In this document: in pieces, positions 1-8,987 of the stretch
Numbering within the stretch: position 1 is the first letter of the stretch
Layout of the letters: every line of letters starts with the position of its first letter
From: a virus
Lineage: Duplodnaviria > Heunggongvirae > Uroviricota > Caudoviricetes
Direction: 5' to 3' (one strand)
IMG/VR virus record: IMGVR_UViG_2617270951_000015
Location: 1 to 8,987 of that record
DNA length: 8,987 nt
The notes under the pieces: model-generated
The model's input: the letters and a program-made list of their open reading frames with translations, nothing else
The model's database searches: none
Told to the model about the DNA's origin: nothing
Position numbers and translations under genes: made by a program

Positions 1-933
1 ATGGACAACGACAAAATTGATCAACACAGCGACGAAATTGAAGTTGAGAGCGAAGAAAAAGAGCGCGGCAAAAAAATAGAAATAGATGAAGACCGACTCC
101 CCTCCCGGGCGATGGCAATTCATGAGCATATCCGCCAGGATGGTGAAAAAGAGCTGGAACGCGACGCAATGGCGCTACTGTGGTCAGCCATTGCGGCGGG
201 TCTGTCGATGGGCGCTTCGTTACTGGCAAAAGGGATATTTCAAGTCGAACTGGAAGGTGTGCCGGGCAGCTTCTTGCTGGAGAATCTCGGTTATACCTTT
301 GGTTTTATTATCGTCATTATGGCCCGCCAGCAATTATTTACCGAAAATACCGTGACTGCGGTACTACCCGTCATGCAAAAACCGACAATGAGCAACGTCG
401 GCTTACTTATACGGTTATGGGGCGTCGTGCTGCTGGGTAATATTCTCGGGACAGGTATTGCGGCGTGGGCATTTGAATATATGCCTATCTTCAATGAAGA
501 AACTCGCGATGCATTTGTCAAAATCGGCATGGATGTGATGAAGAACACCCCCAGCGAGATGTTTGCCAACGCGATCATTTCCGGCTGGCTGATCGCCACT
601 ATGGTTTGGATGTTTCCTGCAGCGGGTGCGGCAAAGATTGTGGTGATTATATTGATGACCTGGCTTATTGCCCTGGGTGACACCACCCATATCGTGGTCG
701 GTTCTGTTGAAATCCTCTATCTGGTGTTTAACGGTACGCTGCACTGGAGCGATTTCATCTGGCCCTTCGCACTACCTACTTTAGCGGGGAACATCTGCGG
801 CGGCACCTTTATCTTCGCGTTAATGAGTCATGCACAGATTCGTAACGACATGAGCAATAAGCGTAAAGCAGAAGCACGCCAAAAAGCAGAACGTGCGGAA
901 AACATTAAGAAAAATTATAAAAACCCGGCATAA
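1..933 (+). CDS. yfdC: Inner-membrane formate/nitrite transporter (FNT) family protein YfdC, complete
   Basis: 310-aa ORF from ATG at 1 to stop at 931-933; strongly hydrophobic multi-helix core with charged N- and C-termini; recognised from memory as E. coli YfdC, the chromosomal gene that flanks argW. Confidence 0.85.
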   Translation: MDNDKIDQHSDEIEVESEEKERGKKIEIDEDRLPSRAMAIHEHIRQDGEKELERDAMALLWSAIAAGLSMGASLLAKGIFQVELEGVPGSFLLENLGYTFGFIIVIMARQQLFTENTVTAVLPVMQKPTMSNVGLLIRLWGVVLLGNILGTGIAAWAFEYMPIFNEETRDAFVKIGMDVMKNTPSEMFANAIISGWLIATMVWMFPAAGAAKIVVIILMTWLIALGDTTHIVVGSVEILYLVFNGTLHWSDFIWPFALPTLAGNICGGTFIFALMSHAQIRNDMSNKRKAEARQKAERAENIKKNYKNPA

Positions 934-1008
934 ATGGCGAGGGTTTAAGCAATCGAGCGGCAGCGTACTTACCCCGCACTCCATTAGCGGGTATACTCAT
1001 GCCGCATT

Positions 1009-1083
1009 GTCCTCTTAGTTAAATGGATATAACGAGCCCCTCCTAAGGGCTAATTGCAGGTTCGATTCCTGCAGGGGACACCA
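1009..1083 (+). tRNA. argW: tRNA-Arg (anticodon CCU)
   Basis: 75-nt cloverleaf read directly: acceptor GTCCTCT/AGGGGAC (one G-U), D-stem GTTA/TAAC, anticodon stem AGCCC/GGGCT with loop CTCCTAA (anticodon CCT), T-arm GCAGG-TTCGATT-CCTGC, discriminator A plus encoded CCA. Confidence 0.9.
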
Positions 1084-1100
1084 TTTATCAGTTCGCCCCC
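1040..1100 (+). other. Probable prophage left attachment junction (attL) at the 3' end of argW; coordinates approximate
   Basis: Inference only: an integrase gene starts about 160 bp downstream of the tRNA 3' end, the usual layout for tRNA-targeting integrases. The matching attR copy is not inside the window, so the core cannot be delimited. Confidence 0.3.
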
Positions 1101-1178
1101 ATCCGTACCAGTCCGCAAAATCCCCTGAATATCAAGCCTTCCGTAGATTCACAGTTCGTCATGGTTCGCGTCAGATCG

Positions 1179-1208
1179 TTGACAGCCGCACTCCATGACG
1201 GGTAAAAA
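1179..1208 (+). promoter_or_regulatory. Candidate sigma70 promoter for the integrase gene
   Basis: Perfect -35 TTGACA (1179-1184), 18-bp spacer, -10-like TAAAAA (1203-1208), about 37 bp upstream of the intS ATG. By-eye prediction. Confidence 0.35.
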
Positions 1209-1244
1209 GTGGATAAAATAATTTTACCCACCGGATTTTTACCC

Positions 1245-2402
1245 ATGCTCACCGTTAAGCAGATTGAAGCAGCAAAGCCGAAAGAAAAACCATACCGCCT
1301 ACTCGATGGTAATGGCCTGTACCTTTATGTCCCTGTGTCAGGGAAAAAGGTATGGCAGCTTCGCTACAAGATTGACGGTAAGGAGAAAATCCTGACCGTA
1401 GGAAAATATCCGCTAATGACTTTGCAGGAGGCAAGGGATAAGGCATGGACTGCGAGGAAAGACATCTCGGTTGGCATCGATCCGGTAAAGGCGAAAAAGG
1501 CTTCGTCTAACAACAATTCCTTTAGTGCGATTTACAAGGAATGGTACGAGCACAAGAAGCAAGTATGGTCAGTAGGGTATGCGACTGAACTTGCAAAAAT
1601 GTTTGATGACGACATTTTACCTATCATCGGCGGCCTTGAAATTCAGGATATTGAGCCGATGCAACTGCTGGAAGTAATCCGCAGATTTGAAGATCGCGGT
1701 GCAATGGAGAGAGCAAATAAAGCCCGCAGAAGATGCGGCGAGGTTTTCCGTTACGCTATTGTTACTGGTAGGGCTAAATATAACCCGGCACCTGACCTTG
1801 CTGACGCCATGAAGGGATACCGCAAGAAAAACTTCCCGTTTCTTCCTGCAGACCAGATCCCGGCATTTAACAAAGCACTGGCAACATTTTCAGGAAGCAT
1901 CGTATCGCTCATTGCGACCAAAGTTTTACGCTACACAGCCCTCAGAACAAAAGAGCTTCGTTCCATGCTATGGAAGAACGTCGATTTTGAAAACAGGATT
2001 ATCACCATCGACGCCAATGTGATGAAGGGACGCAAAATTCATGTGGTTCCTATGTCAGACCAGGTAGTTGAACTTCTCACTATGCTAAGCTCAATCACCA
2101 AACCAGTATCAGAGTTTGTTTTTGCCGGGCGCAACGATAAGAAGAAGCCAATTTGCGAGAACGCTGTACTGCTTGTGATCAAACAAATCGGCTATGAAGG
2201 TCTGGAAAGCGGTCACGGATTCAGGCATGAATTCAGCACGATTATGAACGAGCACGAATGGCCTGCCGACGCCATTGAAGTGCAACTTGCACATGCCAAC
2301 GGCGGATCTGTGCGCGGGATTTACAACCATGCACAGTATCTCGATAAGCGCAGAGAAATGATGCAGTGGTGGGCGGACTGGCTTGATGAAAAGGTAGAGT
2401 GA
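1245..2402 (+). CDS. intS: Prophage tyrosine recombinase (P4-like integrase, IntS-type), apparently intact
   Basis: 385 codons from ATG 1245 (MLTVKQIEAAK...); N-terminal arm-binding region, C-terminal catalytic region containing the HxxR (HGFRHEF) and terminal tyrosine (GIYNHAQYLD) motifs; lies directly beside the tRNA. The ORF-track start at 1209 is a GTG 12 codons upstream; the ATG at 1245 matches the recalled IntS length. Confidence 0.9.
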   Translation: MLTVKQIEAAKPKEKPYRLLDGNGLYLYVPVSGKKVWQLRYKIDGKEKILTVGKYPLMTLQEARDKAWTARKDISVGIDPVKAKKASSNNNSFSAIYKEWYEHKKQVWSVGYATELAKMFDDDILPIIGGLEIQDIEPMQLLEVIRRFEDRGAMERANKARRRCGEVFRYAIVTGRAKYNPAPDLADAMKGYRKKNFPFLPADQIPAFNKALATFSGSIVSLIATKVLRYTALRTKELRSMLWKNVDFENRIITIDANVMKGRKIHVVPMSDQVVELLTMLSSITKPVSEFVFAGRNDKKKPICENAVLLVIKQIGYEGLESGHGFRHEFSTIMNEHEWPADAIEVQLAHANGGSVRGIYNHAQYLDKRREMMQWWADWLDEKVE

Positions 2403-2423
2403 GCGACCTTAAACTATCGAATA

Positions 2424-2458
2424 GCACAAAGCCTAGCAATCCAGTACAAAGCTTTGTG
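2424..2458. repeat. Inverted repeat CACAAAGC/GCTTTGTG enclosing a perfect 12-bp palindrome ACAAAGCTTTGT (2446-2457)
   Basis: Read directly, 22-56 bp downstream of the intS stop and followed by a T-rich stretch (tctcagttttgtc). Could be an intS terminator or a protein-binding operator; function not determinable. Confidence 0.3.
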
Positions 2459-2615
2459 TGTCTCAGTTTTGTCTAAGTGTTCTACTAAAACATAGTAAAA
2501 TCGGTAACGGCTGGAAATCATTCAATACTCGCACTATCGGAAGTTCACCAGCCAGCCGCGGTACGTTCTTACATACGATGTACCGCTGTTCTCTTTACGA
2601 TTTATAGCTGTACTG

Positions 2616-2948
2616 GTGAATTATGAGCAATCTGAATCCATGCATGACGTGTGGTGCCTGTTGTGCATTTTCCGCGTCTCTTTTTACTGGGCAGAAGCTG
2701 ACGATGCTGGCGGAAAGGTTTCGGTCAGTCTCACTGAGCAAATATCTCCTTTTCATCGCTGTATGCGCGGCACCAATCAGAAAAATCCCCGATGTGGCGC
2801 TCTTGCCGGCCCCCCCCGGAGAAAACGCATATTGCTCTGTTTACAAAAACCGTCCACATGCAGGGAATTCGCAATGTCCGGCGAAAATAGCATCGTAAAT
2901 GAAGCATGTAATCGCGCACGGGAAAAATATGGATTTCCAAAAATCTGA
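2616..2948 (+). pseudogene. Cysteine-cluster protein gene (YkgJ/UPF0153-like CxxCxxCC family by motif), disrupted by three frameshifts
   Basis: Protein-like segments alternate between the frames of ORFs 2623..2898 and 2616..2948: [16 protein letters not shown] | [49 protein letters not shown] | [12 protein letters not shown] | [32 protein letters not shown]. Joined they give a ~109-aa protein with CxxCGxCC and CxVYxxRPxxCRxF motifs. Frame switches sit at a T4 run (2668-2671), a C8 run (2810-2817) and an A5/ccgtcc stretch (2845-2856). Weak SD GGTGA before ATG 2623. Confidence 0.5.
2810..2817 (+). repeat. Homopolymeric C8 tract inside the Cys-cluster gene
   Basis: cccccccc at 2810-2817; the reading frame changes exactly across this tract. 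Confidence 0.9.
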
Positions 2949-3060
2949 ATATTCTCCGCCGTGCAAAAATGCGAACAACATCACTTCACTAATCAACCTG
3001 ACATGGCATACTTAGCACGCTAACTATGATAACAAACTAATACCCTAAAACTCATGGTTC

Positions 3061-3087
3061 CGGGACTGGTCGTGGTCCCGTTTTTTT
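3061..3087. terminator. Intrinsic terminator between the convergent Cys-cluster gene and the tfa-like gene (strong on plus, possibly bidirectional)
   Basis: Stem CGGGAC(UG)/(UG)GUCCCG (3061-3080) followed by T7 (3081-3087) on the plus strand; on the minus strand it is preceded by A7 and lies directly after the stop of the downstream gene (3090). Confidence 0.6.
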
Positions 3088-3089
3088 AT

Positions 3090-3698
3090 TCAGCCAGCAG
3101 GCCATCCAACAACGTAACTGCGGATCGCCTTCAGCTCTGTCAGCGCCTCAACCTCTGCTTTCATCTGCAACTGCCGTGTATTAATCTCCACCCCCTTCGC
3201 AAACATCGCCTGCTCTGTCGCATCCGACAGGGCTATGATGTCTGCCGCCGTCACCGGCACCACATTATTATCCCCGTCGGTCCAAGCAAAACCTTCCGGA
3301 AGACGGTTATTCTCTGCCATCAGGCGTGTCATGCTTATCCTGGACAACGTCTTCTTGCCGTAATCCCAGTTCCTTCCGTTGAATTCCATCATGTATTCCA
3401 TATTCTCCTGCACATCACGCCAGATATTAATCTCTTCCCTTTTCGCCGCTTTTGCCGCTTCCAGTACTGCTTCCGTGGCGACAAAGGCACTCACACTTCC
3501 GTACGTTCCTGCTGTCAGCCCAGACCACAATGCTTTTCCGTGTTCTGTATTATCCGTTTCCGTTGCAGTATACGGCAGCCATACCTGTTCCCCTTTTTCA
3601 TTCACCGCGTCTTCAAACTGCACCTCACAGTTTATCCCGCCATATTCGTTGCTGGCTGCATTTCGTACTGCAAGAATCTCTTTTCCCTTATCCACCAT
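3090..3698 (-). CDS. Putative tail fibre assembly/chaperone-like protein (family uncertain), 202 aa
   Basis: ORF placed immediately downstream of the tail fibre gene. Start chosen at ATG 3698 (MVDKGKEIL...) because a strong SD GAGGAGG sits 2 nt upstream and overlaps the stf stop (TAG 3707-3709). The ORF-track start at 3785 would overlap stf by 79 nt. Function is inferred from position only. Confidence 0.6.
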   Translation of the reverse strand: MVDKGKEILAVRNAASNEYGGINCEVQFEDAVNEKGEQVWLPYTATETDNTEHGKALWSGLTAGTYGSVSAFVATEAVLEAAKAAKREEINIWRDVQENMEYMMEFNGRNWDYGKKTLSRISMTRLMAENNRLPEGFAWTDGDNNVVPVTAADIIALSDATEQAMFAKGVEINTRQLQMKAEVEALTELKAIRSYVVGWPAG

Positions 3699-3706
3699 GA
3701 CCTCCT

Positions 3707-5035
3707 CTATGATATGCGCTGAAATAATCCTGCCTGTCTGATACCCGGAGATGATGTCCATAGCATCGGACCACATGCACGCCACGTGCCCGGTAAACGG
3801 GTCTCCCCCACATTACCGGAAGCAACCAGGGGAGTACCATCCGAAAGGCAACATGCAGACAGTGATGAGCCGGCAATGGCTGAGCCCGGTGCCATATCCC
3901 CCGAATAACTCGTCGCATAATATGCCGCAAGGACAAAAGAACCGACACCAAACAGTCCGCTGTCAGGACTTCCTGACGGTCCCTGAGGTCCTGCCGGACC
4001 TGCGGCTCCCGTATCTCCTTTTGGCCCCTGAGGCCCTGCCTGACCTGCGGCTCCCGTATCCCCTTTTGGCCCCTGTGGTCCTGCCGGGCCTGCAGCTCCC
4101 GTATCTCCCTTTGGCCCCTGAGGTCCTGCCGGACCTGCGGCTCCCGTATCTCCTTTTGGCCCCTGAGGTCCTGCCGGGCCTGCAGCTCCCGTATCTCCCT
4201 TTGGCCCCTGAGGTCCTGCCGGACCTGCGGCTCCCGTATCTCCTTTTGGCCCCTGAGGTCCTGCCGGGCCTGCAGCTCCCGTATCTCCCTTTGGCCCCTG
4301 AGGTCCTGCCGGACCTGCGGCTCCCGTATCTCCTTTTGGCCCCTGAGGCCCTGCCTGACCTGCGGCTCCCGTATCCCCTTTTGGCCCCTGAGGCCCTGCC
4401 GGGCCTGCGGCTCCCGTATCCCCTTTTGGCCCCTGAAGCCCTGCCGGGCCTGTATCCCCCTTGTCGCCCTTCGGTCCCTGTGGTCCGCCCGGATCGCCCT
4501 GCTCACCTTTCGGACCTGTATCCCCCTTATCGCCCTTGTCACCTTTATCCCCTTTCGGCCCCGGTGGCCCTGCCGGGCCTGTATCGCCCTTGTCCCCCTT
4601 CTGTCCCTGTGGACCAGTTGCTCCGGTGTCGCCTTTCAGTCCCTGTGGCCCCACGGCAGTTTCGGCTTTCTCAGCAGCTTCTCGCGCCCTGCGCACAGCC
4701 TCATCCGCCGCCGCTTCCAGCTTCTTCAGTGCATCAGGATAATACGCTGCATCCGTTTCACGGAGCAGAAAGGCATTCAGGGTGCCCGGTTCGTCGTCGG
4801 CCATGACATCAATCTCGCCGGCGCATGCCGGCTGACGACCTTCCACGCACAAGGTCACACGATAACGCCCCGGCTCAACCTGCATGCTGTAACTGCCCGT
4901 TTCGCCTGGCTGGTGCTCTGCCACCGTGGTGACTATCACCGTCTCACTCGTTCGCGTGGCTTTCAGCTCTATGGTGCAGTCCGGTACCGGTTTTCCTGTA
5001 CCATCCTTCAGCACACCTGAAATCTGTACTGACAT
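3707..5035 (-). CDS. stf: Side tail fibre protein with a long collagen-like (Gly-X-Y) stalk, 442 aa, apparently intact
   Basis: N-terminal ~90 aa ([17 protein letters not shown]...CTIELKA...) resemble the recalled N-terminus of lambda Stf; residues ~128-345 are uninterrupted Gly-X-Y triplets, including about ten [15 protein letters not shown] units; distinct ~95-aa non-collagen C-terminal domain. Purine-rich SD GGGGGGAA before the ATG. Confidence 0.85.
3982..4476. repeat. Tandem 45-bp repeat array (about 11 units) with a 90-bp higher-order unit repeated three times at 4072-4341
   Basis: Read directly: units begin at 3982, 4027, 4072, 4117, 4162, 4207, 4252, 4297, 4342, 4387 and 4432. Two unit variants (cctgccggacctgcggctcccgtatctccttttggcc and cctgccgggcctgcagctcccgtatctccctttggcc) alternate. 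Encodes the collagen-like stalk of stf on the minus strand. Confidence 0.9.
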
Positions 5036-5808
5036 ATTCCCCCCACAAAAAAGCCCACCAGAACCGGCGGGCTGTCATAACTCTGTGTTACCTGGCTATG
5101 GTAGTTCACCGTCATCTGCTGACCACCAAACTGCTCCGCATCCACCTGCATCCCCACAATGGCCGTGTTCGGGTAGCACTGTTTCACATCGATGATTTCG
5201 GTGTATGACGACCACAGCGTTCTGTTCTGCAGCTGGTCCGTGGTGCTGTCCGCCGTCTCCCTGACCATCCGGATGTTAAAGGGGCGGGGAGGCAGATTAT
5301 CCAGAATCACCGAGGCCAGGAACTGTGAGGTGGTCTTGCCGTTAATGGTGACATCCTTTTCTGTCACCCAGTTACCGTTACGCTGTAACTGAATCAGCAG
5401 ACGGACAGAGGACGGATTACGGTCACCCTTTGACGTGGTCTCCACCAGTGACTGCACCCCGAAGGTCACCCGCAGGCGGTCAATGTTCGCTGACGTAATG
5501 GTGCGTGTTACCGGTTTTGCCCTGGTCACTTCGACACCCAGTACAGTTTCAGAGCCGGAGGACTCAAAGCCTTCCGGTGGTGTCTGCTCCTGCTCCCCGG
5601 CACGCCAGACCGCGGTCACACCGTGTATCACGGGATTACCGTCCGTGTCCGTCAGCGGGGTTTTGTTCACCAGAATACTCTGCAGGCTTTTCACCGGGCC
5701 TTCTATCGGTCCCTCACCAATCGCATCAATCACGCTCATCATCTGCGTGGATTTGAGATTGTCTTTCGCCTCACGAGGCGTGTGTGCCTTACCGCCACCT
5801 TTTCCCAT
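5008..5808 (-). pseudogene. J: N-terminal fragment of a lambda J-like central tail fibre / host specificity protein
   Basis: First ~235 aa (MGKGGGKAHTPREAKDNLKSTQ...NIRM...QLQNRTLWSSYTEIIDVKQCYPNTA...NYH) follow the recalled N-terminus of lambda gpJ (~1130 aa). After NYH (about 5095-5100) the ORF runs out of frame through the stf upstream region and stops at 5008. SD GGGGAAGG before the ATG at 5808. Confidence 0.8.
5047..5072 (-). terminator. Terminator-like hairpin plus U6 immediately upstream of the stf start
   Basis: Minus strand: GCCCGCC-ggttct-GGTGGGC (7-bp stem, one G-U) followed by TTTTTT, then GTGGGGGGAAT-ATG(stf). Plus-strand coordinates: stem 5053-5072, A-run 5047-5052. Confidence 0.45.
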
Positions 5809-5921
5809 ACAGCCTTCCCCTGAATAAATTAACCGCCACTTGCCATTCCGTACAGAAGTCGGATATCCTTCGCCCGAAAAGCATGAAACACATTTCTGCC
5901 ATGCTAAAGAGAAACCCCGGT

Positions 5922-5957
5922 ATCAGCAGATACCGGGGTTTTCTTTCATGCCCACCG
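5922..5957. terminator. Strong GC-rich hairpin with T-rich flanks on both strands (candidate bidirectional terminator) in the I-J insert
   Basis: Perfect 12-13 bp stem AAACCCCGGTATC / GATACCGGGGTTT (5922-5934 / 5939-5951) with loop AGCA; followed by TTTTCTTTC on the plus strand and TTTCTCTTT on the minus strand. Confidence 0.45.
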
Positions 5958-6013
5958 ATAATCCTGTTGGTTAAAACCGGTAATGGCATAAAAATTCTGA
6001 ATATCTTCACATT

Positions 6014-6041
6014 TTCACAAACTGACCGTGGCGCGTATAAT
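6014..6041 (+). promoter_or_regulatory. Candidate sigma70 promoter inside the I-J intergenic insert
   Basis: -35 TTCACA (6014-6019), 16-bp spacer, perfect -10 TATAAT (6036-6041); no ORF follows on the plus strand. Confidence 0.45.
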
Positions 6042-6047
6042 TTCTCT

Positions 6048-6144
6048 GCGTTAATTTTTTTGTCGTGATATAAGAATAATTCCTTACACTTAATCTTCGT
6101 AACTCTCCCGCAGTTCCTGTCCGCGATCACTGCGGGATTTTTTT
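6048..6144 (+). ncRNA. Candidate small non-coding RNA (~95 nt) defined by the promoter at 6014-6041 and the terminator at 6106-6144
   Basis: Predicted TSS about 6048 and 3' end at the T7 tract. No ATG-initiated ORF in the interval (only a GTG followed by an immediate stop). Convergent with, and ending beside, the 3' end of the I-like gene. Purely a sequence-based prediction. Confidence 0.3.
6106..6144 (+). terminator. Intrinsic terminator (plus strand)
   Basis: 9-bp stem TCCCGCAGT / ACTGCGGGA (6106-6114 / 6129-6137) with a 14-nt loop, followed by T7 (6138-6144). Confidence 0.55.
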
Positions 6145-6151
6145 ATTCTTT

Positions 6152-6817
6152 TTACCCCTGCCGCCCGATAACCACGACCTTTCCGCCCCCGCCTTCATCA
6201 CGGGTGCTGATGTCCTGGGATATACGGCGGGAGCCAACCAGCATTTCCCCGTAAGGCACCGGCATCGGGTTCCCCTGGGCAATCATGTTATCCAGCGAGG
6301 AAAAGTACGTGTTCTGTCTGCCGTTATCCGTTGCGCGGTAATCCGGTGTTTTTGCCTTCGGGGCCAGCATCTGGGCCACACCGCCCAGTATCATGCTGGC
6401 ACCCAGTGAAAACAGCATCGTGGTGGCAGAAAAACCACCGGCACTCAGGGCTGTACCCCATAACGCCATCGAGCCTCCGGCCGTGAAGAAAGAGCCCACG
6501 ATGGCTGCCGCCCCCAACACAATCTGCAGTCCACCCTTTCCGGCCCCGGCCAGTCGCGGCACAATGTGGATGACCGTTCCCTCACCCAGCTGTTCGTGAA
6601 GGCGGGCGTACACCACCTCCGGTGCCGTGTCTTCACCGGCAATACGTATCTGGTACCAGCCTTCGTTCATCTGAAGGCGAAAGCCCGGCATCTGCATCGA
6701 CAGGGCGCGAATGGCTTCCGCTGCCGTGTTCACATACAGGCTGAGGCGGCGGCCAAATCGTTGTAAATCCCCGTGGTTGCCCACGGTTGAGCCAGAGATA
6801 ACAGCTTCCACCATCAT
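6152..6817 (-). pseudogene. I: Lambda gpI-like tail assembly protein, N-terminally truncated
   Basis: From GDLQRFGRR onward (minus-strand codons at about 6772 down to the stop at 6152) the protein follows recalled lambda gpI (…IRIAGEDT…IHIVPRLAGAGKGG…FSLGASMILGGVAQMLAPKAKTP…NTYFSSLDNM…PVPYGEM…VVVIGR). The first ~15 codons of the ORF (MMVEAVISGSTVGNH) are out-of-frame FII sequence; the gpI N-terminus is missing. Confidence 0.8.
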
Positions 6818-7103
6818 CCGGCGAAACCCGGTCTATCCAGAAGTTTTCCTCACCGATGGTCAGCGTGTCTCCACGCCGCAGTTGCCGCACATCATCAGTC
6901 CGGACAAACAGGGACGGGCTGGAGCCTTCAACGCGCACGCCCTGTCCGGCATAGCTGATATTTTCAGGGTCATCAAAAACACCACGTATTACTGCGCCGG
7001 ACTGCTCACCGGATGTCATGGTGGCTGACGTTCCCATGTACCCGCGTATCGTTTCATCGGCGCGGGCAATGGCAGCATCGAACAGGTTATCGAAATCAGC
7101 CAC
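6633..7103 (-). pseudogene. FII: Lambda gpFII-like head-tail joining protein, C-terminally replaced by out-of-frame I sequence
   Basis: Residues 1-~108 (MADFDNLFDAAIARADETIRGYMGTSAT...DRVSPDDGGSCYLWL-RG) follow recalled lambda gpFII (117 aa); the remaining ~48 residues read the I gene out of frame. GTG start at 7103 preceded by SD GGGAGG. Confidence 0.75.
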
Positions 7104-7114
7104 AGCGCCTCCCG

Positions 7115-7510
7115 TTATTGCATTCTGGCCAGGCCGCGCTCTGTCATTTCAGCTGCCACACCGGCAGAGACACGGAACGCCGTTCCCGGCAGCACAAATG
7201 CCACAGTGTCATCCCGCGTGGCGTGAAGTGCATCAGTATGCAGCGTCACCAGTGCCACGACCGTGACCAGAGCAGCCGTATCAATCACGGTATCCGGCTG
7301 CGCTGATACCACCTCATTTTCATGTCCGGTCAGCGCATTTTCCGGGCTGACAGATGTGTCCTGACCGGCAGCGTCATCCGTGTCATCAAGCTCCTCTTCC
7401 AGCTCTGCCACACGGAGCACCAGTTCTTCTTTCGTCCCCGTCAGGCTGACATCACGGTTCAGTTGCTCACCCAGCACCTGAAGACGGGCAATCAGTTCAT
7501 CTTTCGTCAT
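7115..7510 (-). CDS. FI: Lambda gpFI-like DNA-packaging/head assembly protein, apparently intact (132 aa)
   Basis: MTKDELIARLQVLGEQLNRDVSLTGTKEEL...AFRVSAGVAAEMTERGLARMQ closely follows recalled lambda gpFI. Start set at ATG 7510 (SD GGAGGAG 3 nt upstream) rather than the longer ORF start at 7549. Confidence 0.8.
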   Translation of the reverse strand: MTKDELIARLQVLGEQLNRDVSLTGTKEELVLRVAELEEELDDTDDAAGQDTSVSPENALTGHENEVVSAQPDTVIDTAALVTVVALVTLHTDALHATRDDTVAFVLPGTAFRVSAGVAAEMTERGLARMQ

Positions 7511-7531
7511 GGACTCCTCCACAGAGAGAAA

Positions 7532-7549
7532 ATGGCCCCGAAGGGCCAT
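7532..7549 (-). other. Perfect 7-bp hairpin with a UUCG tetraloop between the E stub and FI
   Basis: ATGGCCC-ttcg-GGGCCAT on the minus strand, followed by TTTTCTCTCTG and then the FI SD. Could be an attenuator or stabilising structure; function not established. Confidence 0.35.
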
Positions 7550-7551
7550 GA

Positions 7552-7830
7552 TTACGCCAGTTGTACGGACACGAACGCATCAGGATCAGCCAGCAGCATC
7601 AGCGGTGCTGACTGAATCATGGTGAACTCACGCGCCGGATCGCCGGTGGTCACCCAGTTTTTCGGGTAGCGGGCAGAGGCGTTAATACCTTCGCGCTGTG
7701 CGTCCGCATCCTGAATGCAGCCATAACGGAAGCCCTTCACCGTAGGCCATGCCGTTGGACTGTCCGGCAAGCACAACCACGTAGAACCAGTCCGGCTCAG
7801 ATGAAGGGCCGACCTGTGGATCTCCTTCAA
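7552..7830 (-). pseudogene. E: C-terminal fragment (about 58 aa) of a lambda gpE-like major capsid protein
   Basis: YGCIQDADAQREGINASARYPKNWVTTGDPAREFTMIQSAPLMLLADPDAFVSVQLA is the recalled C-terminus of lambda gpE (341 aa). Homology runs from about 7725 down to the stop at 7552; the upstream part of the ORF is out-of-frame nanS-like sequence. Confidence 0.8.
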
Positions 7831-7975
7831 TAGCCACCGCCTGCATCAGTGTGTACGGCGTAATGGCAACCGGTCCGCCATATGGCTGCCAGCCCTCTTT
7901 CAGTTTGTGTGTCAGCTTTTCCGCAAGGTCTGACGGCGACGCCGCCCTGACAACATCATAGTGTTTAAATGCCAT
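7682..7975 (-). pseudogene. nanS-p: N-terminal fragment (about 84 aa) of a prophage NanS-p-like sialate O-acetylesterase (DUF1737 region plus start of the SGNH/SASA domain)
   Basis: MAFKHYDVVRAASPSDLAEKLTHKLKEGWQPYGGPV...DWFYVVVLAGQSNGMAYGEGLPL carries the GQSN esterase motif and a recalled NanS-p type N-terminus. Homology stops at about 7726, where the E stub begins in another frame. SD GGAGG before the ATG at 7975. Confidence 0.65.
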
Positions 7976-8168
7976 GAATCCTCCCGGCCGGGATAATATT
8001 GTGAGTAAAATGAGGAGCGGGCTGAAGTCCGGAAGTTACAGGACAATGGCAGAAGAGAGACAACAGCCCGCAATACGAAAAAGGCCGCACTATTGCGCAG
8101 AGTGATTACTGTCGGATATTATTCGCCAGCTGAAATATTACTTCACGTTTTGTTGTTTATTCCTTGCC

Positions 8169-8196
8169 GCCCGCGTCTCCCTGCGCGGGCTTTTTT
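8169..8196 (+). terminator. Intrinsic terminator (plus strand) in the tRNA-nanS spacer
   Basis: Stem GCCCGCG / CGCGGGC (8169-8175 / 8184-8190) with an 8-nt loop, followed by T6 (8191-8196). A second perfect 8-bp hairpin AGCCCCTC-cgga-GAGGGGCT sits at 8208-8227. Confidence 0.55.
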
Positions 8197-8423
8197 GTCC
8201 ATAAGAAAGCCCCTCCGGAGAGGGGCTGGAGAGTGGCGCTATGTGCCATTGCATGGTGCCGGGTGCCTCCCGGTGAATTCAGTACCAGCACCTGAATCCG
8301 CGATTATCCCATATACCTACTCGCTGATTGCCCCTCCGCACAGGGGGATTCACCATGCCAGTTTCTTTTAACAAACTCCCCGCAAAACAGACAACTGTCA
8401 ACCGTCTGAATTGTGAGACATTT

Positions 8424-8449
8424 AAAAAAAAGGCCCGCAAAAGCGAGCC
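8424..8449 (-). terminator. Intrinsic terminator ending the minus-strand tRNA operon
   Basis: Minus strand: GGCTCGC-tttt-GCGGGCC (one mismatch in 7 bp) followed by T8 (plus-strand A-run 8424-8431), 15 nt after the 3' end of the last tRNA. Confidence 0.5.
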
Positions 8450-8463
8450 AGGGAAAATAAGTG

Positions 8464-8540
8464 TGGCGCGTTGTACTGGATTCGAACCAGTGACCGATTG
8501 CTTAGAAGGCAATTGCTCTGTCCGGCTGAGCTAACAACGC
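8464..8540 (-). tRNA. tRNA-Arg (anticodon UCU)
   Basis: 77-nt cloverleaf on the minus strand: GCGTTGT-TA-GCTC-AGCCGGACA-GAGC-A-ATTGC-CTTCTAA-GCAAT-CGGTC-ACTGG-TTCGAAT-CCAGT-ACAACGC-G-CCA; all stems perfect. Corresponds to one of argN/argO of Stx-type phages (which name is uncertain). Confidence 0.85.
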
Positions 8541-8553
8541 AGGATACAGATAA

Positions 8554-8630
8554 TGAACCGCCTTCGGGGACCCGAACTCCGCGCAACCAGCTTCGAAGGC
8601 TGGCGCTCTTTCCTGATGAGCTAATGGCGG
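8554..8630 (-). tRNA. tRNA-Arg-like (anticodon UCG), atypical and possibly degenerate
   Basis: CCGCCAT-TA-GCTC-ATCAGGAAA-GAGC-G-CCAGC-CTTCGAA-GCTGG-TTGCG-CGGAG-TTCGGGT-CCCCG-AAGGCGG-T-TCA. D and anticodon arms are perfect, but the acceptor stem has one A-A mismatch, the T-stem has one A-C mismatch, the T-loop has G where the near-invariant A58 is expected, and the 3' end reads TCA rather than CCA. Confidence 0.5.
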
Positions 8631-8637
8631 TATGTGA

Positions 8638-8713
8638 TGGTGGCCCTTGCTGGATTTGAACCAGCGACCTGGCGATTATGAGTCGCTCGCTCTCACCACT
8701 GAGCTAAAGGGCC
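8638..8713 (-). tRNA. ileZ: tRNA-Ile2/Met (anticodon CAU), ileX/ileZ-like
   Basis: 76 nt: GGCCCTT-TA-GCTC-AGTGGTGA-GAGC-G-AGCGA-CTCATAA-TCGCC-AGGTC-GCTGG-TTCAAAT-CCAGC-AAGGGCC-A-CCA. Close to the recalled E. coli ileX sequence, so probably the lysidine-modified AUA reader; the isotype cannot be proven from sequence alone. Confidence 0.8.
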
Positions 8714-8722
8714 GGGAGCAGA

Positions 8723-8751
8723 ATAATAATGGTGCGTAATTAATTCTGCAA
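8723..8751 (-). promoter_or_regulatory. Candidate sigma70 promoter for the tRNA operon
   Basis: Minus strand: -35 TTGCAG (8751-8746), 17-bp spacer, -10 TATTAT (8728-8723), about 9 nt before the 5' end of the first tRNA; lies directly after the methyltransferase stop (8763). Confidence 0.4.
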
Positions 8752-8762
8752 TCTCATCCGTT

Positions 8763-8987
8763 TCAAACGATTAAATCCTGAACTTCCCTGACTGTCTGCT
8801 CAAAACGTCCGGTCTCCAGTTCAACGCCAATCGCACGACGCCCGAGCGCCAGTGCCGCTTTTACCGTTGAACCTGAGCCCATAAAAAAATCTGCAACCAG
8901 GTCACCCGGACGACTGCTCGCGCTGATTATCTGCTGCAGCATTTCTGCCGGTTTTTCGCACGGATGTTTCCCGGGATAGAACTGCAC
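8763..8987 (-). CDS. DNA methyltransferase (beta-class N6A/N4C amino-MTase), C-terminal 74 aa only; gene continues beyond the right window edge
   Basis: Open to the window end. Motif IV-like HPCEKP precedes motif I-like FFMGSGST, the motif order of beta-class amino-methyltransferases. Whether the full gene is intact cannot be judged. Confidence 0.7.
   Translation of the reverse strand: MQFYPGKHPCEKPAEMLQQIISASSRPGDLVADFFMGSGSTVKAALALGRRAIGVELETGRFEQTVREVQDLIV

What the first reader, a model, noticed from the sequence alone, without database searches (positions are those of the whole stretch)
5008..7975. Late/tail region reduced to a chain of gene stubs joined by three precise internal deletions
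Each long minus-strand ORF here is a chimera of non-neighbouring lambda-type genes read partly out of frame: a NanS-p N-terminus joined to the E C-terminus (junction about 7720-7730), an FII N-terminal part joined to I lacking its N-terminus (about 6772-6782), and the first ~235 aa of J joined to the stf upstream region (about 5090-5100). In lambda and Stx-type phages these joins would remove, respectively, lysis/terminase/portal/scaffold genes, Z-U-V-G-T-H-M-L-K, and most of J plus lom. That is roughly 20 kb lost in three events, while FI, stf and the gene after stf stay intact. It is a clean record of prophage decay and explains why the ORF track looks odd.
Basis: partly seen in the sequence, partly recalled or inferred. 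Interest (0 to 1): 0.5.

Follow-up and report, generated by a model that had tools for sequence, protein, structure and literature searches.

The report
Decayed lambda-like prophage, deletion scars mapped
This stretch is the wreck of a lambda-like virus in an E. coli chromosome, whose head, tail and lysis genes were cut down to stubs by at least three clean deletions totalling about 22-24 kb; it is an ordinary and well-known kind of prophage decay.

Summary
The window is 100% identical to E. coli draft GCA_000704905.1, contig JNRX01000020.1.

Against an intact relative at potB (NZ_CP145714.1), the minus-strand late region is a chain of stubs:
- NanS-p codons 1-84 join the last 57 codons of E at 7724/7725, with TA shared.
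- FII codons 1-~110 join I lacking 19 codons at 6773-6775, with GTG shared.
- J codons 1-237 join the spacer just past the lom stop at 5097/5098, with TA shared.

There is no filler and no IS. The losses are about 11.9-13.2 kb, 6,969 bp and 3,432 bp. FI, stf and the DUF4376 gene remain open.

Eight draft assemblies and one SRA assembly carry these junctions. Six drafts have junctions 2 and 3 but keep Nu1-A and C-D-E, plus a separate 589-bp W-B deletion. The NanS-p/E deletion therefore came last.

None of 5,426 closed E. coli genomes carries any of the three junctions. Three closed genomes hold a near-twin of junction 3 that keeps 13 more lom bases, so junction 3 may be compound.

It is a tidy example of known prophage decay and of low interest.

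The parts
7724..7975 (-). nanS-p stub: codons 1-84 (DUF1737 domain plus the first SGNH block GQSN of the esterase domain). The ORF 7682-7975 continues for 13 out-of-frame codons into E.
   Evidence: 99.8% identical to the 5' end of a 618-aa DUF6645/SASA esterase gene in strain 700462. Pfam DUF1737 on residues 3-49 and PHROG 143 on residues 1-84. NanS-p domain order taken from PMC10462455.
7724..7725 (.). Junction 1 (NanS-p codon 84 joined to E codon ~285). The 2 bases TA are shared by both parents; there is no filler.
   Evidence: Base-by-base comparison with L004 (NanS-p side) and with L001, L014 and L007-L010 (E side). Absent from 5,426 closed E. coli genomes.
7552..7725 (-). E (major capsid) stub: last 57 codons plus the stop.
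   Evidence: 98.4% identical to the 3' end of PhiR30_1 E. Pfam Phage_cap_E profile positions 275-328 of 329. Translation.
7115..7510 (-). FI (DNA packaging chaperone), intact, 131 aa.
   Evidence: Pfam Packaging_FI positions 1-131 of 131, E = 3.6e-49. Collinear with PhiR30_1 FI.
6773..7103 (-). FII (head-tail joining) stub: about 110 of 117 codons; the last 26 nt of the gene are lost. The ORF 6633-7103 runs on for about 46 codons in a wrong frame of I.
   Evidence: 100% match from 6773 to the FII allele of NZ_CP145714.1. PHROG 82 positions 1-109 of 118.
6773..6775 (.). Junction 2 (FII 3' end joined to I codon 20). The 3 bases GTG are shared; there is no filler.
   Evidence: with both sides read against the single reference L014; 6,969 bp lie between them there. 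No closed E. coli genome spans it.
6152..6775 (-). I (tail tip assembly) stub: lacks the first 19 codons of the lambda-type reading frame. The ORF 6152-6817 starts with 14 out-of-frame FII codons.
   Evidence: 97-98.5% identical to I of L014 and L003. ASU11 I is annotated at 226 aa and the match stops 57 nt short of its start. Pfam Lambda_tail_I begins at profile position 9.
5809..6151 (.). 343-bp insert between I and J (lambda-type PhiR30_1 has 60 bp here). It is part of the parent phage, not a deletion scar.
   Evidence: Present in the intact relatives L014, L003 and L002. Details are under Noticed in passing.
5097..5808 (-). J (tail tip / host specificity) stub: codons 1-237 of about 1157. 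The ORF 5008-5808 adds 29 codons read from the lom-stf spacer and the start of stf out of frame.
   Evidence: 98.5% identical to L003 J and 97.3% to L014 J. PHROG 1727 positions 6-245 of 1174 and Pfam FNIII-A_GpJ.
5097..5098 (.). Junction 3 (J codon 237 joined to the base after the lom stop codon). The 2 bases TA are shared; there is no filler.
   Evidence: 3,432 bp lie between the two sides in L014. Near-twin with 13 more lom bases in three closed genomes.
5036..5096 (-). lom-stf spacer with a terminator-like hairpin at 5052-5073.
   Evidence: Collinear with L003, L014 and L002 downstream of lom. Hairpin.
3707..5035 (-). stf: side tail fibre gene, open, 442 aa, with 45-bp collagen-like repeats (about 3980-4620).
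   Evidence: Pfam phage_tail_N 1-127 plus Collagen. Lengths of 397-442 aa in steps of 15 aa among sister assemblies.
3090..3761 (-). DUF4376 gene after stf, open, 223 aa.
   Evidence: Pfam DUF4376 and PHROG 1141 tail fibre protein. The exact protein is found in 195 index blocks of the collection, at several loci.
2623..2948 (+). ykgJ-family gene at the prophage end, here a pseudogene (three frameshifts).
   Evidence: Alignment with the intact copies in L014, L003 and L005. The same indel state occurs in closed genome CP170296.1 (1-3899, 0 gaps).
1009..2402 (+). tRNA-Arg argW (1009-1083) and integrase intS (1245-2402): the attachment-site end of a KplE1-type prophage.
   Evidence: gene calls. 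Organisation of intS at attL from PMC2951348.
8197..8987 (-). Upstream late-region leftovers: STnc100-family sRNA (8197-8387), three phage tRNAs (8464-8713) and the 3' end of a DNA methylase (8763-8987, cut by the window and contig end).

Best explanation
The region is the late operon of a defective lambda-like prophage. It has the Stx-phage layout (Q, methylase, tRNAs, nanS-p, lysis genes, lambda-type head and tail genes, stf) but carries no stx.

It was cut down by successive large internal deletions, each joining two unrelated points that share only 2-4 bases. The most likely mechanism is RecA-independent illegitimate recombination, by replication slippage or microhomology-guided end joining.

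Order of events. The FII-I, J-lom and W-B deletions came first; their own order is unknown. One further deletion of about 12-13 kb, from nanS-p codon 85 to E codon ~284, then removed the lysis and packaging genes and most head genes.

What remains cannot build a capsid or a tail and cannot lyse the cell. The chimeric ORFs are by-products of the joins, not genes.

Shown here: the breakpoints, the sizes, the shared bases, and the intermediate state in other strains. Inferred: the molecular mechanism, and that the losses were tolerated or favoured because they remove lethal functions.
For: - Source. The window is identical to JNRX01000020.1.
- Reference. One intact relative at potB (L014) has every gene in lambda order, and all three joins map onto it with no filler.
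- Deleted spans. 6,969 bp and 3,432 bp in L014. About 13.2 kb in L014 and 11,885 bp in strain 700462 for the third.
- Shared bases. TA, GTG and TA at the three junctions, and CATG at the extra W-B deletion. For random joins the chance of 2 or more shared bases is 0.156 each, so 6e-4 for four junctions.
- No IS or repeat at any junction.
- Independent assemblies. GCA_000704885.1 has all three junctions and no differences from the window over 4373-8987. GCA_000704605.1, 000704585.1, 000687025.1, 000704665.1, 000703845.1 and one further place not shown have junctions 2 and 3 with 0-1 differences over 4620-7725. They still hold Nu1, A, C, D and full E, with the 589-bp W-B deletion.
- Protein profiles match only the expected halves.
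- Deletions are a documented defect class in E. coli lambdoid prophages (PMC2669165).
Against: - The mechanism is inferred from scars only. Two or three shared bases are weak evidence taken one junction at a time.
- Junction 3 has a near-twin in three closed genomes with the same J-side breakpoint and 13 more lom bases. It may therefore be two events, or a preferred deletion site rather than a random one.
- The order of the FII-I, J-lom and W-B deletions is unknown, because every record that has one has all of them.
- All sister records are short-read drafts from what looks like one clone, so 'independent' applies to the assemblies, not to the evolutionary events.
Confidence: 0.88

Rival explanations
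1. The joins are assembly artefacts: chimeric contigs made from several co-resident lambda-like prophages.
For: The source is a short-read draft. E. coli strains of this type carry many near-identical lambdoid prophages (median 6 matching places per genome). The stf repeat region really is at risk of misassembly.
Against: The three junctions lie in unique sequence, not in repeats. Junctions 2 and 3 recur base for base in eight NCBI assemblies, and junction 3 also in a separate Logan assembly of SRR1186490. Junction 1 recurs in two assemblies.
Confidence: 0.02
2. The ORFs are natural full-length or mosaic proteins of an unusual phage, not deletion products.
For: Lambdoid phages are mosaic. RefSeq annotates a 193-aa 'I' that is fully contained in the window.
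Against: - Each ORF matches its family over one part only and then runs in a wrong frame of the next gene.
- The J stub protein is on record in only 8 contigs and the FII chimera in only 7; the NanS-p/E chimera is not on record at all.
- No phage record spans any junction.
- The 193-aa start would cut into the conserved I domain, and the profile match in the window already starts at position 9.
Confidence: 0.01
3. The deletions are not independent. A single catastrophic event, with several breaks rejoined at once, produced the FII-I, J-lom and W-B joins together.
For: Every record with one of these three joins has all three, so no intermediate separates them. All have the same kind of short shared bases.
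Against: - Junction 1 is demonstrably a separate, later event.
- The PE164-type junction suggests that the J-lom join has its own, possibly older, history.
- The sampled records look like one clone, so missing intermediates are expected anyway.
Confidence: 0.12
4. The remnant is kept by selection as a working module, not merely as debris. It would supply tRNAs, sRNAs and a tail-fibre cassette that co-resident phages can borrow.
For: - FI, stf and DUF4376 are open while their neighbours are cut.
- The tRNAs and an STnc100-family sRNA are retained.
- A promoter-terminator unit in the I-J insert is conserved.
- stf shows signs of exchange between prophages.
- Defective prophages are known to donate DNA to phages (PMC3945230, listed).
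Against: The sister copies are nearly identical, so there is no signal of purifying selection to measure. FI has no use without a capsid. ykgJ next door is decaying.
Confidence: 0.08

Closest known systems
Defective lambdoid prophages of E. coli O157 Sakai (Sp3-Sp15 pool; Asadulghani et al. 2009, PMC2669165) and the K-12 cryptic lambdoid prophages DLP12, Rac and Qin
   Same: Lambda-order late genes with deletions that remove packaging, head, tail or lysis functions. Tail-fibre genes survive at the end, and several similar prophages sit in one genome and can recombine. The comparison with the K-12 elements rests on my own knowledge.
   Different: There are no IS insertions. The damage is a clean series of microhomology deletions, and an earlier stage survives in sister isolates. 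This particular set of junctions is in none of 5,426 closed genomes.
Intact lambda-like prophage at potB in E. coli S1-CAM-01-A (NZ_CP145714.1) and relatives (NZ_AP027829.1, phage ASU11, phage PhiR30_1)
   Same: Same gene order and 94-100% DNA identity for every retained piece, including the 343-bp I-J insert and the ykgJ gene at the end.
   Different: The relative keeps about 22-24 kb that the window lacks. Its nanS-p allele differs, so the best nanS-p match is strain 700462.
KplE1 (CPS-53) type prophages at tRNA argW (Panis et al. 2010, PMC2951348)
   Same: argW is followed by intS, transcribed away from the tRNA. In STECUZB006 the late and tail genes point towards intS, with the excisionase torI at the far end.
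   Different: KplE1 in K-12 carries other cargo. Here the intS end is attached to a lambda-type tail-fibre region and the stub chain.
NanS-p sialate O-acetylesterases of Stx and related phages (PMC10462455)
   Same: N-terminal DUF1737 domain, and a position downstream of the phage tRNAs where Stx phages carry stx then nanS-p.
   Different: Only 84 of about 620-650 residues remain, so the esterase domain is lost. No stx gene is present.

Membership tests
Defective (cryptic) lambdoid prophage | Homologues of lambda late genes in lambda order | tested here: met
   On the minus strand the order is nanS-p, E, FI, FII, I, J, stf. Each piece is collinear with intact relatives.
Defective (cryptic) lambdoid prophage | Sits at a phage attachment site next to an integrase | tested here: met
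   argW and intS lie at 1009-2402. The same left end occurs in closed genome CP170296.1. Caveat: the link to the stub chain passes through the stf repeats.
Defective (cryptic) lambdoid prophage | Lacks genes essential for virion production or lysis | tested here: met
   In the window the late operon runs unbroken from nanS-p to stf. It has no holin, endolysin, terminase, portal, protease/scaffold or D. It keeps only 57 aa of E, has none of Z through K, and keeps only 237 aa of J.
Defective (cryptic) lambdoid prophage | Cannot be induced to give plaque-forming phage | not testable with these tools
   Needs an induction experiment.
Deletion by microhomology-mediated illegitimate recombination | Endpoints share only a few bases, with no long homology | tested here: met
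   TA, GTG, TA and CATG. The flanks are otherwise unrelated.
Deletion by microhomology-mediated illegitimate recombination | No inserted filler, IS element or site-specific recombinase target at the join | tested here: met
   Both parents account for every base. No transposase ORF lies nearby.
Deletion by microhomology-mediated illegitimate recombination | Independence from RecA or homologous recombination | not testable with these tools
   Genetic experiment needed.
IS-mediated adjacent deletion | An IS element or its end at the junction | tested here: not met
   None in 5008-7975.
NanS-p esterase (functional member) | Complete SASA/SGNH catalytic domain after DUF1737 | tested here: not met
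   Only DUF1737 and the first block (GQSN) remain, and the protein ends 13 residues after the junction.
Phage satellite or tailocin (considered) | Satellite: its own replication and hijacking genes. Tailocin: complete tail tube, tape measure and tip genes. | tested here: not met
   No such genes in the window; Z through K are deleted.

The most novel reading that the evidence does not exclude
The stub chain is more than debris. It would be a retained late-transcription unit (phage tRNAs, an STnc100-type sRNA, a conserved antisense promoter-terminator unit between I and J, and an intact stf-DUF4376 tail-fibre cassette). This unit would serve as a donor of tail fibres or regulators for co-resident lambdoid phages. 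It would also move between the potB and argW prophage sites by recombination in the stf collagen-like repeats, possibly through a terminus-spanning chromosomal inversion of about 1.3 Mb.
Probability: 0.08. Interest if true: 0.45.

Novelty: new member of a known kind. Interest (0 to 1): 0.15.

Why it matters
It explains the odd ORF track, which is made of wrong-frame fusion ORFs that annotation pipelines partly mis-call. One example is a 156-aa 'head-tail attachment' protein. It is also a compact worked example of how a lambda-like prophage is dismantled: clean joins at 2-4 shared bases, with an earlier stage still present in sister isolates that gives the order of events. The junction sequences are absent from 5,426 closed genomes, so they could serve as clone-specific markers. 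It does not reveal a new mechanism or gene.

Tried and rejected
- Filler at junction 2. With PhiR30_1 as reference, junction 2 seemed to hold 14 unexplained bases (6776-6789). I considered templated filler or a small second deletion in FII. A junction-spanning search found FII alleles that match 100% from 6773, so there is no filler.
- Exact look-up of the 97-aa NanS-p/E chimera found nothing. Gene callers call the 62-aa E stub instead.
- A literature search for the WGS accession prefixes of the eight assemblies gave no paper, so the strains' identity stays unknown.
- Rfam at a permissive threshold found no family for the I-J insert.
- IS-mediated deletion, satellite, tailocin and natural fusion protein were all rejected (see the membership tests).
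- DNA-level matches at 94-100% already settle identity.
- I could not fetch the other contigs of GCA_000704905.1 to look for the reciprocal potB junction.


Full report
SOURCE AND LAYOUT

The window is 100% identical over all 8,987 bases to positions 2-8988 of L006. L006 is the end of contig JNRX01000020.1 of the E. coli draft assembly GCA_000704905.1.

On the plus strand it holds:
- yfdC (1-933), tRNA-Arg argW (1009-1083) and integrase intS (1245-2402);
- a ykgJ-family pseudogene (2623-2948).

On the minus strand it holds, from low to high coordinates:
- a DUF4376 gene (3090-3761) and stf (3707-5035);
- the stub chain of the finding;
- an STnc100-family sRNA (8197-8387), three phage tRNAs (8464-8713) and the 3' end of a DNA methylase, cut by the contig end.

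CHECK OF THE OBSERVATION

Searches against phage records and 5,426 closed E. coli genomes split 5008-8987 into three blocks. Each block is collinear with a different part of lambda-like prophages:
- 5097-6775: J start, I-J spacer and I;
- 6790-7725: FII, FI and the E end;
- 7724-8987: nanS-p start, tRNAs and methylase.

No record covered two blocks contiguously.

Base-by-base comparison fixed the joins.
- Junction 1. The E side matches through 7725 and the nanS-p side from 7724, so TA is shared.
- Junction 3. The stf side matches through 5098 and the J side from 5097, so TA is shared. The stf side stops one base past the lom stop codon.
- Junction 2. It first seemed to contain 14 extra bases. 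A junction-spanning search then found FII alleles matching 100% from 6773. Against that genome the I side ends at 6775 and the FII side begins at 6773, so GTG is shared and there is no filler.

The same genome, NZ_CP145714.1 (L014), carries an essentially intact relative next to potB. It has every gene in lambda order from Q to stf, DUF4376 and ykgJ.
- On it, junction 2 removes 6,969 bp: the FII tail, Z, U, V, G, T, H, M, L, K and the first 19 codons of I.
- Junction 3 removes 3,432 bp: J from codon 238 onward, plus lom.
- Junction 1 removes about 13.2 kb in L014. It removes 11,885 bp in strain 700462, which has the closest nanS-p allele.
- The total is about 22-24 kb.

Profile searches agree. 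Each chimeric ORF hits its family only over the expected part, FI is complete, and stf and DUF4376 are open. RefSeq annotates a short 193-aa I that lies wholly inside the window. The lambda-type frame (226 aa in ASU11) loses 19 codons, and the Pfam I domain match starts only at profile position 9.

ARTEFACT OR REAL

Exact look-ups of the J stub and of the FII chimera returned eight NCBI draft assemblies. The J-stub look-up also returned one Logan assembly of SRR1186490.
- GCA_000704885.1 has all three junctions and no differences from the window over 4373-8987.
- Five listed assemblies (GCA_000704605.1, 000704585.1, 000687025.1, 000704665.1, 000703845.1) and one further place not shown carry junctions 2 and 3. 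The four aligned base for base show 0-1 differences over 4620-7725.
- Those assemblies diverge from the window exactly at 7725 and continue with full-length E, D, C, a shortened portal gene, A and Nu1.
- The shortened portal is a further 589-bp deletion, from inside W to B codon ~143, with CATG shared.

The junctions are therefore real. The nanS-p/E deletion is the latest step, and it erased the older W-B scar. Every record with junction 2 also has junction 3, so their relative order is unknown.

MECHANISM

None of the four joins has filler, an IS or long homology. They share 2, 3, 2 and 4 bases. For random joins the chance of at least 2 shared bases is 0.156, which gives 6e-4 for four. This fits RecA-independent illegitimate recombination at microhomologies, which is an inference from the scars alone.

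The outcome is a prophage with no lysis, packaging, head-shell or tail-tube capacity. Prophages with such defects are well documented in E. coli (PMC2669165).

A COMPLICATION AT JUNCTION 3

None of the closed genomes spans junction 1 or junction 2. Three closed genomes (PE164, E105, F2_81) span the junction-3 query at 85.7% identity with a 13-base gap.

In PE164 an 83-bp J fragment has the same J-side breakpoint, within one base. It is joined to the last bases of lom (…CCTGGC[TAATCAGAACTTA]TATGGTAG…). The J fragment is itself joined to a 36-bp I fragment and then to a Q-proximal region.

Both endpoints agree within 1 and 13 bases, so chance is unlikely. Two explanations remain:
- the window's junction 3 is an older J-lom deletion followed by a 13-bp TA..TA slippage; or
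- this is a preferred deletion site, given that the lom terminator hairpin lies 25 bases away.

Sequence identity of the short J fragment (about 95%) does not decide between them.

CONTEXT OUTSIDE THE FINDING

Window 1-3899 is 99.92% identical, without gaps, to closed genome CP170296.1 (yfdC, argW, intS, ykgJ pseudogene, DUF4376, stf 3' end). That genome carries a different deletion. The intS-ykgJ-tail arrangement is also seen in STECUZB006, where late genes point to intS and torI lies at the far end. This is the KplE1-type organisation (PMC2951348).

By contrast, the sister remnant in GCA_000704885.1 sits next to potB with an intact ykgJ. It differs from the window by 4.6% over 2623-3622. The switch lies in the 45-bp collagen-like repeats of stf (about 3900-4373).

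This is either recombination between two prophages or a misjoin in a short-read assembly. From my knowledge of the K-12 map, the two ykgJ copies are in inverted orientation, so a crossover would invert about 1.3 Mb across the terminus. I could not test this.

VERDICT

This is a neat but ordinary case of prophage decay.

Noticed in passing
window 5809-6151: There is a 343-bp insert between I and J, where lambda-type PhiR30_1 has 60 bp. It holds a perfect 13-bp hairpin (5912-5941). On the plus strand, antisense to the tail genes, it has a near-consensus promoter (TTCACA-16-TATAAT, 6014-6041) and a terminator-like stem with a T-run (6106-6145). This looks like a roughly 95-nt small-RNA unit. The promoter and terminator are conserved in L003, L014 and the diverged ASU11, while the body differs. 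No Rfam family matches.
   Followed up: partly
window 3900-4373, compared with L005 and L020: The window is a mosaic. Positions 1-3899 equal the argW prophage end of closed genome CP170296.1 (99.92%). Positions 4373-8987 are identical to a remnant that sits at potB in GCA_000704885.1. The switch lies in the stf collagen-like repeats. It is either inter-prophage recombination, possibly a large inversion, or a short-read misjoin.
   Followed up: partly
L007 2429-2432 (also L008-L010, L027): Sister assemblies that lack junction 1 carry a 589-bp deletion from inside W to portal codon ~143, with CATG shared. This leaves a 390-aa portal ORF.
   Followed up: yes
L030 (PE164, NZ_CP114128.1) 7001-7175: This remnant is eroded further. 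A 36-bp I fragment and an 83-bp J fragment are joined to the last bases of lom and then to stf. The J-side breakpoint is the same as at window junction 3, but 13 more lom bases are kept. The same structure occurs in E105 and F2_81.
   Followed up: partly
window 2623-2948: ykgJ (CxxCxxCC family) at the prophage end is a pseudogene. Relative to the intact copies it has -1 in a T-run near 2668, +1 in a C-run near 2812 and -4 in a CCGT repeat near 2848. The same state occurs in a closed genome, so it is not a sequencing error.
   Followed up: yes
window 8197-8713: An STnc100-family sRNA (139 bits) and three phage tRNAs sit where Stx phages carry stx, but no stx is present. ARAGORN calls the CAT-anticodon tRNA Met, whereas RefSeq records call its homologue Ile.
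   Followed up: no
L018 9258-10055; L020 8626-10001: Other genomes show independent large deletions that end in or near stf. One is a 265-aa ORF fusing head decoration protein D to collagen-like stf repeats. Another joins W to a point near the stf 3' end. Late-region deletions reaching the tail-fibre gene seem common.
   Followed up: no
window 3980-4620 (stf repeats): stf length is 397, 412, 412, 427, 442 and 442 aa in the sister assemblies, in steps of one 45-bp repeat. This is either real slippage or collapse of repeats in short-read assemblies.
   Followed up: partly
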